From: Octopus vulgaris
Lineage: Eukaryota
Direction: 5' to 3'
Assembly: GCA_951406725.2 (NCBI GenBank)
Contig: OX597839.1
Coordinates: 5,518,001 to 5,582,000 of the forward strand
DNA length: 64,000 nt
The notes beneath the pieces were generated by a model. It searched no databases. It saw only the letters and a program-made list of their open reading frames with translations, and was not told where the DNA came from. The position numbers and the translations under genes are program-made. Numbering within the stretch: the stretch's first letter is position 1; each line of letters opens with the position of its first letter. This document shows, piece after piece, positions 22,202 through 34,168 of this stretch.

Positions 22202-22296
22202 GGGTCCGGCCAGATTGGAGCAATCTCGAGTATAACCAGCCGAAATTGCAAAGATGATCTGGAACTCGACTGAGGAGAGAAAACTTAGAATGGCCC
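22202..22296 (+). ncRNA. Structured, pseudoknotted repeat RNA containing hammerhead core motifs (copy 1)
   Basis: Pairings GGGUC/GGCCC, CCAGAUU/GAUCUGG, GCAAU/AUUGC and UCGAGU/ACUCGA; covary with the copy at 34074. Confidence 0.55.
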
Positions 22297-22372
22297 GTCC
22301 GTGATTTTTCTTCTCCCTCCTTTGTATCATCTGTCTGGATGTTTTGCGTTCTTGTACATGTGTTTGTGGAAA

Positions 22373-22787
22373 GGTGGCAAGCTGGCAGAAACGTTATAAG
22401 CCGGGCAAAATGCTTAGTGGTATTTCGTCTGCCGCTACGTTCTGAGTTCAAATTCCGCCGAGGTCGACTTTACCTTTCATCCTTTCTGGGTCGATTAAAT
22501 AAGTACCAGTTACGCACTGGGGTCGATATAATCGATTTAATCCGTTTGTCTATCCTTGTTTGTCCTCTCTGTGTTTAGCCCCTTGTGGGTAGTAAAGAAA
22601 TAGGTATTTCGTCTGCCGCTACGTTCTGAGTTCAAATTCCGCCGAGGTCGACATTACCTTTCATCCTTTCGGGGTCGATTAAATAAGTACCAGTTACGCA
22701 CTGGGGTCGATATAATCGACTTAATCCGTTTCTCTATGCTTGTTTGTCACTTCTGTGTTAAGCCCCATGTGGGTAGTAAAGAAATAG
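22373..22787 (+). mobile_element. SINE family A dimer
   Basis: Two units joined by AAAGAAATAGGTATTTCGTCTG. Confidence 0.9.
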
Positions 22788-23056
22788 GTACATGTGTTTG
22801 TGGAATGCTCAGCCGCTCGCACGTTAATTTAACAAGTGGGTTGTTCAGTTGCTCGAATCAACTGTAACACACATCGTCATAACCGACGGAGTACCAGTTT
22901 AATTGAAGGGAAGGAGCAGGAGGAAGAGGAGCAGAGTGTAAAATACCACCAACAAATATACGCACATACCTCCAAACATGTGTGGGTGTGTGTGTGTGTG
23001 TATCGTTTATAAAATTGCATAAACTTTGAGGAACGGGAAACTATTTCTTTCTAGCT

Positions 23057-23233
23057 GTGAGAGAAAGTTGTGGCGAAAGAGTACAGCAGGGATCGCCATC
23101 ACCCCCTGCCAGAGCCTCGTGGAGCTTTAGGTGTTTTCGTTCAATAAACACTCACAATACTCGCTCTGAGAATCGAAACCGCGATCCTACGACTACGAGT
23201 CCGCTGCCCTAACCACTGGGCCATTGCGCCTCC
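23057..23233 (-). mobile_element. SINE family C head
   Basis: GAGAGAAAGTTGTGGCGAAAGAG..CCATTGCGCCTCC. Confidence 0.85.
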
Positions 23234-24189
23234 ATATATATATATATATATATATATATATATATATATATATATATATATATATATATATATATATATA
23301 TATATATGTATGTATGTATATATGTATAACTACAATTGGTGTATCTACCACACCTGCTATAAGCAGCACCAGTAGTAGTAGTAGTAGTAGTAGTAGTAGT
23401 AGTATAGATGGTATGGGTGTTATAGGTAGAGGAAGAAGAGGAGTGCTACCACTACCATTGTGTGGAGCAACAATTAAGCAATGCAACAATTACAAAGAAG
23501 AAGAAGAAGAAGAAGAAGAAAAGGAAGAAGAAGAAGAAGAAGAAGAAGAAGAGAAGAAGAAGGAGAAGAAGAAGATGAAGAAGAAATATAATAGGCATTG
23601 AAAATGGCTTCAATATATTCATTTATCCAATGGAAAAAAACATACCGGAAGTAGAAAGATATGTGGGATATGATGGAGAGAGAGAGAGAGAGAGAGAGAG
23701 AGTTGACAGTGAAGTACATCTTGAGGGACAAAGTACGAAGTGTTAACTCGCCTCCGTACGATCTCCCCTACCAAACCATCGATGCCAGTTCTTCCGCCGC
23801 CACCAGCAGCTTGAAGCAACAGAAAAACATCAGCCATTCTGTTGGAGTGCCAACCAAGACAGGAATGCCGGAAACGAAAGATGTAGACCGGAAGCAGATC
23901 GAAGAAGTAATAACAACAACAATAAAAATGATGATGATGATAATGATGGTGACAGCTACGATTATGATGTCGACGCTGATAACGTTGATAATCATCATCG
24001 CTGATGTTATCTTGATGACAGTGATGGTCATGTTCTTACCGATGATGGTTAACATGGCAATGATAAGGATTTCAGTATCCTCCGTATTTTTCAATAATAA
24101 TAATAGTAATAATAATAATAATAATAATAATAACAATAATAATAATAATAATAATAATAATAATAATAATAATAATGATAATAATAATA

Positions 24190-24575
24190 ATTAATTCGTT
24201 TATTGGCCACAAGGGCTAACAAAATTCAGTTATAACATAAAGGGACAAAACTGGACGAAAAGTTACAAAGTGTTTTGTCCGTTTGCAAAAATCCGTGTAC
24301 ACAATCAGTATAACAACGAAAATATTTAACAATGAATAACTCCCAAAAGGGGGAGGCGCTTCGAAAGGTTACATGTGGAAAAACCCATAAAAGCCACGGG
24401 AACCTGGTCAAAAGGGGGGTAGAGAGCCCCTTTCAACTTTTATATTACCTTTCAATTTTCACAGGTGTATCCTCAGAATTGGTCCGTTCATACTGGCCAT
24501 TCTTGCGACATTTACCCACCTTTCAGTAAACTTGCTATGAGACAGCACTTCCCTCACTACTCTCATCTTCCTTTA
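24190..24575 (-). mobile_element. 3' end of a non-LTR retrotransposon, probably Tx1/L1-like
   Basis: Minus strand reads RKMRVVREVLSHSKFTERWVNVARMASMNGPILRIHL* (F..RW C-terminal pattern); 3' UTR ends TTAGCCCTTGTGGCCAATAAACGAA then (TTA)n. Clade assignment is inference. Confidence 0.55.
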
Positions 24576-24671
24576 CAAGTGAAATACCGCTAAGCATTTC
24601 GTCCAGCGCGCTAACAATTCTGCCAGCTCGCTGCTTTCCATTTCCTATAATAATAATAATAATAATAATAA

Positions 24672-25140
24672 TTAAAGATCAGACAAAAAAGATCTGTTTA
24701 TTAATTGACATGAGTATTCCTTGCGATCACAATATAAAGGCGAAATAATTTGACAAGTTTAGTAAATATAAAGACCTGCTAATAGAAATTGAAAAAATGT
24801 GGCATATCAAGGCGACTACAGTACCAGTGATTATAGGATCTCTAGGAATGATTAAAAAAGGTATTGAAACCTATTTGAAAATGATTCCAGGCTTACCATC
24901 CCTACAGGAAATGCAAAAAATCGTATTAACTGGAACGGCTCATGTACTGAGAAGAGCATTATCGCTGTGAAAACAACATCCATATCCATGAATTTATTTA
25001 TTTATTAATTTTTAAATACATATTTTATCTGTGAATTTGCGTGTGTAATCTGGGAATGCATACAATGAGCTTCTCTGCCCTAGATGTATGGAAAACTCTC
25101 GAGAAACGGAAGAAAATTTGAAGAAAGAAGGAAAAAACAT
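24672..25140 (+). mobile_element. Dong/R4-like LINE 3' fragment (RLE C-terminus) within (TAA)n
   Basis: KICLLIDMSIPCDHNI..KYKDLLIEIEKMWHIKATTVPVIIGSLG..LTGTAHVLRRALSL*; (TAA)n on both sides; homologous to 59062-59570. Confidence 0.85.
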
Positions 25141-31710: not shown

Positions 31711-31823
31711 AAGCACCCTTACTCACTTTAATATCTACATACACACATATATATATGTTGTCATGATAGATCTTTAGCCACTACATACATTTTTTTCTCT
31801 CTTCTTGTTTTTTTTCTGAGTCC

Positions 31824-31858
31824 CTTTCTGTAGAAGAGCGTAGGCTCGAAACGTAAAA
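31824..31858 (+). ncRNA. Minimal hammerhead-like motif with core substitution (CUGUAGA)
   Basis: CUUU-CUGUAGA-A-GAGC-GUAG-GCUC-GAAA-CG-UA-AAA. Confidence 0.4.
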
Positions 31859-32559
31859 TACTTTTTCTCTTCCTGAGCATTATACTAATACATCTGTTTG
31901 TTTTGCACACAACCTGTCTTAGTCTTTTGTTTTTTTCGTAAACTCTCCCTATATATATATATATGTGTGTGTGTGTGTGTGTCTATATGTATACGTATAT
32001 ATATATGTGTGTGTGTGTATATATATATATATATATATATATATATATATATATATACACACGTATATATAAATATAGATAAATATGTATATATATGCAT
32101 ATATACATACATATACATACATACATATATATATATATATATATATATTATATACACGCGCACACATACACTATGCATTTATTTTTGTGTATTCATAAAT
32201 ATACACACAGACATTTTAAACTTCATATCAGTTTGTATATGTGTGTGTTTGTGAGTATGTGTCTGCATGTGTGTTTGTGCGTGTGTGTGTGTGTGTGTGT
32301 GCATGTGTATCTAAGAAGAGATTTGTAAAGAGCGTGAGCAAGGAAAACAGATAGATCAAATAGACGGAACGCGAGCAACAATCCAGACATAGGTTACTTA
32401 ACCCCCTTATCTTCCAAAAGGGACAACATCCATGGGGTAAAGCACACGCAGAAGAGATAATATTAAATCCCACCACCCTGAAGAAGTCAGCCAAACAACA
32501 AAGATCTGGAAAGGGTACAAAATCACATTGGTGCTGCAGCTTGGCCTCAACTTAAACGA

Positions 32560-32700
32560 ATAAAAGACGGCATCAGTCTCGAACTCACTCCATCACCAAC
32601 AGCCAATCATATGAGACTGACCTTTGAAAAAAAGGTGATTACACTGACGGTGCTCCAACATGGCCACAGCCTTTGGGCTGAAAACGTAAAGAAGAAACAT
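32560..32700 (+). mobile_element. LINE 3' tail of the same type as 770-830
   Basis: GACGGTGCTCCAACATGGCCACAGCCTTTGGGCTGAAAAC. Confidence 0.55.
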
Positions 32701-32793
32701 AAGAAATAAAAGCAATAAGGAAATATGCTCACACACACAGACACACACACACTCACATTTAAATATATATATATATATATATATATATATATA

Positions 32794-33050
32794 TCACCGT
32801 GACCGACCAGGCTATCAGATGATGTAACACATCGCTGGTCACAATGCGCTTCGCATTGTTTTAGCCTTCAAGTGACGCCACCCTGCTGGCTAAGAGAGCA
32901 GGCCAACAGAAGAAAGTGTAAGAGAAAGTTGTGGCGAAAGAGTACAGCAGGGATCGCCCTCCCCCCCCTGCCGGAGCCTTGTGGAGCTTTAGGTGTTTTC
33001 GCTCAATAAACACTCACAACGCCCGCTCTGGGAATCGAAACCGCGATCCT
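32794..33050 (-). mobile_element. SINE family C, tail type 1, 5'-truncated
   Basis: TCACCGTGACCGACCAGGCTATCAG..GAATCGAAACCGCGATCC. Confidence 0.9.
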
Positions 33051-34073
33051 ATAAATACGCATTTATATGCGTATTTGTGAATGATATTAACAATTCTCAG
33101 AGAGACAGTCTATACGCCATTGGCAGTCGCACAGAGTGAGTTGGTTCTATTTGGGAATATCCGTTGGTGTACAGGCGCGTATGTCTGGAACTATATATGA
33201 ATATGTATATATCTGTGCGCTAGCGTGTGTCTATATGTATGTGTGTACGTATAAAATTAATGTATATATATATATATATGTATGTGTTAGTGTACATGTC
33301 TATATAATTATGTGTTGAGGTAAAGGGATTAGTTTTATGTATAAAAATAAGATTAAAAATTCATTCTGTTGGCTTCAATGATGTCGACATAACTATGTGA
33401 GGTTGATGGAGGTCAGAAATGTGATATTTACGCACATTATGCGTAAGAATAACATTCTGTGTGTTTGTGTATGTGTGTGTGTGTGTGTGTTTGTGAGCAT
33501 ATGTGTGTGTATGTGTGCGTGCGCATGCGTGAGTTTCGTTACGAATATTTGCAATATATATTTAACATAAGTCTTCATACAATCATAAAGTCTTTCGTTA
33601 TATCAATGTAACTTTCTGTCTCACTCTCTCTTGCTCTGCCGCTCTTTCGTTCTCTCTCTATATCTCTATCTCACTGTCTTTCATTCTCTCTCTGTCTCTT
33701 TCTCTCTCACTGTCTTTTTCATGCTTTCTGTCAGTATGTATATATACACACAGACGTACACACACACATATGGTACAGTAAGAAGCTTGCTTCCAAATCA
33801 GATGGTTCCAGGTTCAGAACCACAGCGAAACACCTTGGGAAAGTGTCTTCAACAGAAGCTTCAGGCCGAATAAAGCCTTATGAATGGATTTAGCCCGTTG
33901 TATATATGGATATATATATATATATATATGACTGACCGACTACTGGTCTTTTATTATTACGTATTATTTTTGTATTCATATTAGTGTAACATCGTCCATT
34001 TTTCCGTCCTTGTTTTGTATACATTCGAGGCTTTCTTCCAAGGAATCTAATGCTCTTAGCTTAGTTTTTCCTT

Positions 34074-34168
34074 GGGGCTGGCCAGATTGGAGCAATCTCA
34101 AGATTAATCAGCCGAAATTGCGAGGGTGGTCTGGTTCTTGACTGAAGATTAAAGGCTTCGAATGTCCC
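34074..34168 (+). ncRNA. Structured, pseudoknotted repeat RNA (copy 2)
   Basis: Pairings GGGGC/GUCCC, CCAGAUU/GGUCUGG, GCAAU/AUUGC and UCAAGA/UCUUGA, followed by CUGAAGA. Confidence 0.55.

What the first reader, a model, noticed from the sequence alone, without database searches (positions are those of the whole stretch)
22202..34168. Covarying pseudoknotted RNA carrying all hammerhead core motifs in non-canonical order
Seen in two diverged copies (22202-22296, 34074-34168): four helices with compensatory or consistent changes, notably UCGAGU/ACUCGA vs UCAAGA/UCUUGA and GGGUC/GGCCC vs GGGGC/GUCCC. The order is GCAA-UC-[stem I], then GAAA-UUGC, then [stem I']-CUGA(G/A)GA. That is the reverse of any circular permutation of an HHR, and stem II is essentially absent. 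The 3' end (hairpin-GAAU-closing helix) also recalls the HDV-like J4/2. Inference: a functional structured RNA, possibly a re-wired or trans/multimer-assembling hammerhead or an undescribed self-cleaving fold.
Basis: partly seen in the sequence, partly recalled or inferred. Interest (0 to 1): 0.7.

Follow-up and report, generated by a model that had tools for sequence, protein, structure and literature searches.

The report
Rewired hammerhead ribozyme in Naiad retroelements
This repeat, present in thousands of copies, holds all the catalytic letters of a hammerhead self-cutting RNA, but wired in an order not found in the papers searched and shared with Naiad retroelements of five animal phyla, which likely explains why those elements were thought to lack such a ribozyme.

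Summary
The two copies are real (74 of 95 letters alike) and belong to the 3' end of a dispersed repeat with at least 10,734 pattern matches (control 11). [quoted passage not shown] Stem II is not absent: its 5' strand lies upstream of the cut site, and two extra helices (X, Y) fill the gap between A9 and G10.1. These pairings covary between subfamilies (92% paired). A stem II in the usual place does not form (6%). The same wiring, with unrelated letters, sits behind a Naiad reverse transcriptase in this genome. By eye it is also in 8 of 39 published Naiad ends from five phyla; 7 others carry the known CSG permutation. Truncated copies start at the predicted cut 108 times, against 11 just upstream, which is indirect evidence of cutting in vivo. 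Best reading: a self-cleaving hammerhead of a new topology in a non-autonomous Naiad-type element. Cleavage was not tested, and no autonomous parent was found for this family.

The parts
33950..34222 (+). Copy 2: 5'-truncated copy of the repeat's 3' end (subfamily B), followed by TA/TG microsatellite; ends approximate
34022..34034 (+). Helix X, 5' strand (13 bp with 34152-34164)
   Evidence: 92.4% paired for the outer 6 bp in 30 copies
34038..34075 (+). Hairpin Y (8-bp outer stem, -14.2 kcal/mol); its 3' end abuts G10.1
   Evidence: inner pairs 90-93% paired
34076..34081 (+). Displaced 5' strand of stem II (G10.1 = 34076), pairs with 34108-34113
34082..34088 (+). Interaction helix Pa, 5' strand, pairs with 34128-34134
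34092..34103 (+). Block S: stem III strand, U16.1 (34096), C17 (34097; predicted cut on its 3' side), stem I strand
   Evidence: truncation step
34108..34121 (+). Block G: stem II 3' strand, GAAA (34114-34117), stem III strand
34128..34148 (+). Pa 3' strand, stem I strand (34136-34141) and CUGAAGA (34142-34148; A9 = 34148)
34152..34164 (+).
22202..22356 (+). Copy 1 (subfamily A): cut off just 5' of stem II, so X and Y are missing; two mismatches in stem II; C17 = 22225, GAAA = 22242-22245, CUGAGGA = 22270-22276; probably a decayed copy

Best explanation
The motif has all hammerhead core letters and stems, with the stem II 5' strand moved upstream and two extra helices between A9 and G10.1, and it likely cuts its own RNA after C17 (34097/22225) at the 3' end of a likely non-autonomous Naiad-type Penelope-like element. 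Shown: the 5'-to-3' order is X, Y, stem II 5' strand, Pa, [III']UH[I], [II']GAAA[III], Pa', [I']CUGANGA, X'. Read as a circle this is the published type-CSG ribozyme with helices X and Y inserted after A9 and the chain opened at the far end of X. Inferred: X and Y stack on each other as a side branch of a four-way junction, while stem II stacks on the G12-A9 pair as in an ordinary hammerhead, so the catalytic core is unchanged. Inferred: a transcript running through head-to-tail units of about 0.7-0.8 kb is cut once per unit. The 3' product stays bound to the 5' product through X, II, Pa and III, which would favour re-ligation or circles. A Naiad reverse transcriptase, supplied in trans, copies the RNA into (TA)n and often runs off the cut 5' end, leaving copies that begin at U1.1.
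For: Pairing. In 30 copies of 8 subfamilies, 92.2% of cells pair and 65 show two-sided changes against 27.1 +/- 3.6 in shuffles (0 of 500); slid partners give 20-41%. Families were assigned from the 3' half only, and the displaced stem II still pairs in each: GGCUG/CAGCC in A (42-46 of 54 per pair), GGCCU/AGGCC in C (15-19 of 22), GACACC/GGUGUC in the Naiad family N (27-31 of 31). A stem II in the usual place forms in 6% of cells and in no family at offsets 0-2. Letters outside the search patterns are kept: U16.1 in 147 of 160 copies, H17 in 157, G10.1 in 135. Context. Copies share a 3' end at (TA)n, are variably 5'-truncated, and occur as tandems (9 same-strand spacings, 432-984 nt) and as inverted neighbours, as described for Naiads (PMC8557442). 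L163 shows the same wiring about 0.8 kb behind a Naiad RT region; family N has 400 pattern matches, control 0. By eye, 8 of 39 published Naiad ends have this wiring with unrelated letters (ctenophore, two cnidarian classes plus a coral, acanthocephalan, ostracod, two octopuses), and 7 of 39 have plain CSG. In-vivo trace. 108 copies join (AT)4 at the predicted cut against 11 two letters upstream, although the upstream join has more microhomology (p about 1e-21). 40 of the 108 were fetched and span many sub-lineages. One extra letter between A9 and G10.1 is tolerated in a viroid hammerhead (PMC3705267).
Against: No cleavage assay was run. Eckert 2023 assumed that CUGAnGA and its stems cannot be interrupted by more than one or two letters, so activity of this wiring has no precedent. 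No RT was found near any of 150 loci of the window's family, and a profile of that family does not hit family N significantly (best E 0.22), so the Naiad link rests on architecture and insertion style. The covariation counts rest on few independent subfamily changes: only 2 of 5 stem II pairs change on both sides in alignment A1, X and Y vary little, and two of the five measures are not above shuffles. A large B subfamily has an A-C mismatch in Pa (3 of 26 paired). X is only about 3 bp in the octopus Naiads, and stem I is only 2 bp in the ctenophore record. Starts downstream of the cut are also common (7 of 17 loci at +2 to +7, 6 at the cut, 4 upstream) and were not counted genome-wide. 24 of 39 Naiad ends showed neither form in the text displayed. 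The cut triplet AUC is rare in natural hammerheads (PMC1636495 abstract).
Confidence: 0.72

Rival explanations
1. The fold is real but is not mainly a cutter. It is a hammerhead-derived knot kept as a recognition or stop signal for the Naiad reverse transcriptase, and the pile-up of 5' ends comes from stalling.
For: No cleavage data. Starts at +2 to +7 are frequent too. The core is interrupted at a place thought uninterruptible.
Against: The catalytic letters are kept across five phyla while the stems turn over completely. The step falls exactly at the bond predicted from the hammerhead. A transcriptase moving 3' to 5' has already displaced the partners of stems I and III when it reaches C17 (inference).
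Confidence: 0.12
2. It cuts, but through another assembly: two RNAs or two tandem units exchange strands, or it refolds so that a stem II forms 3' of CUGANGA.
For: Tandem copies are common. Subfamily B has a GGCU 5 letters after A9 that could pair with AGCC. Dimeric Penelope hammerheads exist (recalled, not checked here).
Against: The 3' GGCU is absent in families A, C and N, and no usual stem II forms. All strands pair in cis within 143 nt. X and Y close the junction in unrelated phyla.
Confidence: 0.09
3. The ribozyme reading is right, but the window's family is mobilised by, or derived from, another Penelope-like clade or another retroelement rather than a Naiad.
For: No RT near 150 loci, and no significant sequence match to family N. 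Neptune elements also prefer microsatellites (PMC8557442).
Against: The same wiring was seen only in Naiads, including RT-bearing copies in this genome. The (TA)n target is listed for all cephalopod Naiads.
Confidence: 0.05
4. An HDV-like or wholly new self-cleaving fold, as the first reader also considered.
For: A hairpin followed by GAAU can be drawn at the 3' end.
Against: The GAAU pairs in helix X (92.4%). The closing helix does not covary. Rfam gives no ribozyme hit at E up to 10. Every hammerhead core letter is accounted for.
Confidence: 0.02

Closest known systems
Type-CSG and type-SGC non-circularly permuted hammerheads (Eckert et al. 2023, PMC10085705)
   Same: Pseudoknotted order of the core motifs; a short linker from the stem I strand to the stem II strand; an interaction helix joining the other ends of stems I and II.
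   Different: There block C (stem I strand, CUGAnGA, stem II strand) is intact; here it is split by helices X and Y. [quoted passage not shown]
Naiad Penelope-like elements (Craig et al. 2021, PMC8557442)
   Same: (TA)n target, partial tandems, inverted truncated neighbours, short tail; Naiad_Ovul and Naiad_Obim ends carry the same wiring.
   Different: Reported to lack canonical hammerheads, with only 'core' or 'half core' strings noted. The window's family has a unit of about 765 nt and no RT found.
Animal non-LTR retrozymes (bioRxiv 10.64898/2026.07.22.740005; abstract and four passages read)
   Same: Non-autonomous tandem units with a hammerhead, proposed to derive from Penelope-like pLTRs.
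   Different: That work sampled 35 species, mostly vertebrates, and does not mention cephalopods or permuted hammerheads.
CChMVd plus-strand hammerhead with an extra A between A9 and G10.1 (PMC3705267)
   Same: The same backbone position accepts an insertion.
   Different: One letter there; two helices and the chain ends here.

Membership tests
Hammerhead ribozyme | Core letters CUGANGA, GAAA, UH | tested here: met
   Both window copies. U16.1 in 147 of 160 and H17 in 157 of 160 copies. CUGANGA and GAAA were part of the search patterns.
Hammerhead ribozyme | Stems I, II, III flanking the core, with U16.1-A15.1 and G10.1-C11.1 | tested here: met
   92-94% paired per stem with two-sided changes; all families.
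Hammerhead ribozyme | Stem II strand follows A9 directly (0-2 letters) | tested here: not met
   6% paired; no family at offsets 0-2.
Hammerhead ribozyme | Self-cleavage 3' of N17 | not testable with these tools
   Indirect only: 108 versus 11 truncations across the bond.
Hammerhead types I, II, III | Circular order of blocks C, G, S | tested here: not met
   Order is S, G, then CUGANGA (block definitions).
Type-SGC / type-CSG hammerhead | S joined to G by a short linker; interaction helix between stems I and II | tested here: met
   Linker 1-5 letters; Pa paired in all families, with one A-C mismatch in a large B group.
Type-SGC / type-CSG hammerhead | Intact block C | tested here: not met
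HDV-like ribozyme | Nested double pseudoknot with unpaired J4/2 and closing P2 | tested here: not met
   GAAU is paired in X; closing helix has no covariation; no Rfam hit. The HDV layout itself is recalled.
Naiad Penelope-like element | (TA)n target, 5' truncation, partial tandems, inverted neighbours, short tail | tested here: met
Naiad Penelope-like element | ORF with N-terminal GIY-YIG and RT | tested here: not met
   0 of 150 loci of the window's family have an RT match. Family N has RT; its endonuclease was not tested.
Naiad Penelope-like element | Sequence kinship with an autonomous Naiad end | tested here: inconclusive
   Best nhmmer E 0.22, at the expected place; same architecture.
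Non-LTR retrozyme | Non-coding tandem unit with one ribozyme per unit | tested here: met
   L077 unit 765 nt, L122 unit 713 nt.
Non-LTR retrozyme | Circular or monomeric RNA in vivo | tested here: inconclusive
   One cyclic 738-nt contig in run X1, whose RNA status is only a guess; tandem DNA would look alike.

The most novel reading that the evidence does not exclude
A seventh natural hammerhead topology: an active ribozyme whose CUGANGA and stem II are separated by a two-helix four-way junction. It is conserved from ctenophores to octopus in Naiad retroelements, cuts their RNA in vivo, and leaves the products locked together for re-ligation, so that Naiads as a clade rely on non-circularly permuted hammerheads.
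Probability: 0.6. Interest if true: 0.88.

Novelty: new variant of a known kind. Interest (0 to 1): 0.8.

Why it matters
It would break the three-block rule that limits hammerheads to six permutations, and show that the core accepts whole helices between A9 and G10.1, a new site for engineering switches. It gives a direct test of an open point in Craig 2021, where Naiads 'lack canonical HHRs' yet keep core strings: many appear to carry permuted ones. It would move non-circular hammerheads from anonymous metatranscriptomes into animal genomes at very high copy number. The pile-up of insertions starting at the predicted cut is genomic evidence on what the ribozyme does in the Penelope life cycle, which that paper calls unclear.

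Tried and rejected
Rfam on the whole window: the 150 rows shown were all miRNA models on microsatellites or inverted repeats; 302 lower rows were not shown. Rfam on 33950-34230: one chance hit, E 7.1. Minimum-energy folding does not recover the knot. Usual stem II: fails. HDV-like reading rejected. Search for an autonomous parent: walking upstream ended in a preceding unit's tail; no RT at 150 loci; window-family copies near Naiad RT loci (L164, L173) look like separate insertions. One search covered a downstream flank by mistake and was not used. Expression: no RNA holder on record; contigs only, which cannot show RNA ends. Earlier findings of this scan: nothing by sequence or by the key words; one unrelated fungal hammerhead. 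A covariance model was not built, because it cannot hold the pseudoknots. R-scape was not available. The published Naiad ends were parsed by eye and not by program.
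Full report
Observation. The window is microsatellite- and SINE-rich animal DNA from a 2.8-Gb genome, G000. The two copies are at the stated places and share 74 of 95 letters. In both, stem I (6 bp), stem III (5 bp including U16.1-A15.1) and a 7-bp helix Pa pair fully, in the order [III']UC[I], GAAA[III], [I']CUGANGA. A descriptor for that order finds these 2 sites in the window against 0.05 per shuffle (100 shuffles). Rfam has no family for it.

What it is part of. 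Each copy has many relatives in G000. A short pattern gives 10,734 exact matches against 11 for the reversed control, a lower bound on copy number. Copies share a 3' end that runs into (TA)n and are cut off at varying 5' points. They form head-to-tail partial tandems: 9 same-strand spacings of 432-984 nt in 150 loci, with a unit of 765 nt in L077 and 713 nt in L122. Some have inverted truncated neighbours. This is the insertion style described for Penelope-like elements, and (TA)n is the Naiad target (PMC8557442; passages read, metadata). No RT lies near any of the 150 loci, so the family looks non-autonomous. Copy 2 keeps about 125 nt upstream of the motif. Copy 1 is cut just before stem II and has two mismatches in it.

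The structure. Eckert et al. 2023 (PMC10085705; abstract, sections 13, 15, most of 18 and passages read, supplements not read) divide hammerheads into blocks S, G and C and describe non-circular orders SGC, CSG and GCS. They assume block C (stem I strand, CUGAnGA, stem II strand) cannot be interrupted. Here the core motifs come in the order S, G, C, but nothing after A9 pairs with the strand before GAAA: 6% of cells in 30 copies, and no family at offsets 0-2. The partner lies upstream. With families assigned from the 3' half alone, the upstream strand pairs in each: GGCUG/CAGCC in A, B, D and E, GGCCU/AGGCC in C, GACACC/GGUGUC in N (D and E have 2 usable copies each; 10 of 170 assigned copies whose 5' half is microsatellite were dropped). 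Stem III and stem I also change on both sides between families. Two further helices close the gap. Hairpin Y ends directly at G10.1. Helix X pairs the strand after A9 with a strand upstream of Y; it is 13 bp in copy 2. On alignment A1 (30 copies chosen for full length across subfamilies), 28 pairs in X, Y, I, II and III are 92.2% paired, with 65 two-sided cells against 27.1 +/- 3.6 and slid controls at 20-41%. Two of the five measures are not above shuffles, the copies are related, and X and Y vary little, so the weight rests on the between-family changes. Pa was left out of that count because family C lacks one of its pairs on both strands; counted per family it pairs, except for an A-C mismatch in one large B group.

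Link to Naiads. Craig et al. report that Naiads lack canonical hammerheads but note 'core' and 'half core' strings, including in Naiad_Ovul. The published octopus Naiad ends show the same wiring with different letters. That motif has 400 matches in G000, control 0, and in L163 it lies about 0.8 kb behind a Naiad RT region. I read 39 of the 54 Naiad consensus ends by eye; most names are inferred from the next header in the file. Eight have the split form with X and Y: Bfor (ctenophore; stem I only 2 bp), Chem-3, Movir-2 and Amil (cnidarians), Plae (acanthocephalan), Dst-4 (ostracod), Obim and Ovul (X about 3 bp). Seven have plain type CSG: Parc, Nbra-1, -2, -3, Hcon, Hpol and Ptep, the last with one extra letter after A9. 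Twenty-four showed neither in the displayed text. In the split examples every stem differs in sequence while the pairing and order are kept. A profile of the window's family does not hit family N significantly (best E 0.22), so kinship of the window's family with Naiads is inferred from architecture and insertion style, not from sequence.

Trace of cutting. If the RNA is cut after C17, reverse transcription should often end there. Copies joined to (AT)4 at U1.1/C1.2 number 108; copies joined two letters upstream number 11, although that join has more microhomology. Among the first 100 listed, 20 have the unambiguous extra-T join, against 0 of 11. Forty of the 108 were fetched and belong to many sub-lineages, so they are not copies of one truncated master. 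In a small listing of 17 loci, 6 start at the cut, 7 at +2 to +7 and 4 in the 23 positions upstream. The signal is therefore a step at the bond, not a lone peak, and downstream positions were not counted genome-wide. RNA data were not decisive: no run is on record as RNA, and one cyclic contig of a whole unit is a weak hint.

Mechanism. Shown: the order and pairing of strands, the kept core letters, the repeat context and the truncation step. Inferred: the core folds as in any hammerhead; X and Y stack as a branch at the A9-G10.1 step, a position known to accept one extra letter (PMC3705267, passage read); the RNA is cut once per unit; the products stay paired through X, II, Pa and III; and a Naiad RT acts in trans. 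Confidence 0.72. The rivals are a non-cutting recognition knot (0.12), cutting through a dimer or refold (0.09), a non-Naiad carrier (0.05) and an HDV-like or new fold (0.02).

Novelty. It works like a hammerhead and passes the core and stem tests, but fails the intact-block-C feature of all six described permutations, so I file it as a new variant of a known kind and not as type SGC or CSG. Searches of the open library found no description of this wiring or of permuted hammerheads in Naiads. Subscription journals were not searched, and the unread Eckert supplements could hold a related motif. Other papers seen: PMC3088659 (passages on core insertions, none like this), the 2026 retrozyme preprint (abstract and four passages) and PMC1636495 (abstract).

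Noticed in passing
PMC8557442 File S5: Six nematode Naiads and one spider Naiad carry complete type-CSG hammerheads with an interaction helix; Eckert 2023 knew only two CSG sequences, both from metagenomes.
   Followed up: partly
PMC8557442 File S5, records before Naiad-2_Movir, Naiad_Amil, Naiad_Mmer, Naiad_Obim: Several Naiads without a hammerhead show strings resembling twister ribozymes; the likeness is recalled and was not tested.
   Followed up: no
L059, L127, L128, L227, about 150 nt upstream of the motif: A small GUC-loop-GAC hairpin with a GAAA or GUAA loop is kept across subfamilies; it could be a tertiary contact or protein site.
   Followed up: no
window 22354-22371 and 22788-22805: An 18-bp direct repeat flanks a SINE pair inserted at the 3' end of copy 1.
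   Followed up: no
window 13682-13837: A near-perfect 156-bp inverted repeat, MITE-like; it gives a spurious miRNA hit.
   Followed up: no
window 49047-50254: Nested direct and inverted repeats of 330-620 bp at 96-99% identity.
   Followed up: no
L122:1300-2013, run X1: A 738-nt cyclic contig covers one whole unit of subfamily D; circle or tandem cannot be told apart.
   Followed up: partly
L077 unit: A 175-codon open frame in the pyrimidine-rich part, probably due to base composition.
   Followed up: no
window 34095-34097 and 22223-22225: The cut triplet is AUC, described as essentially absent from natural hammerheads (PMC1636495 abstract); families C and N have GUC and GUA.
   Followed up: no
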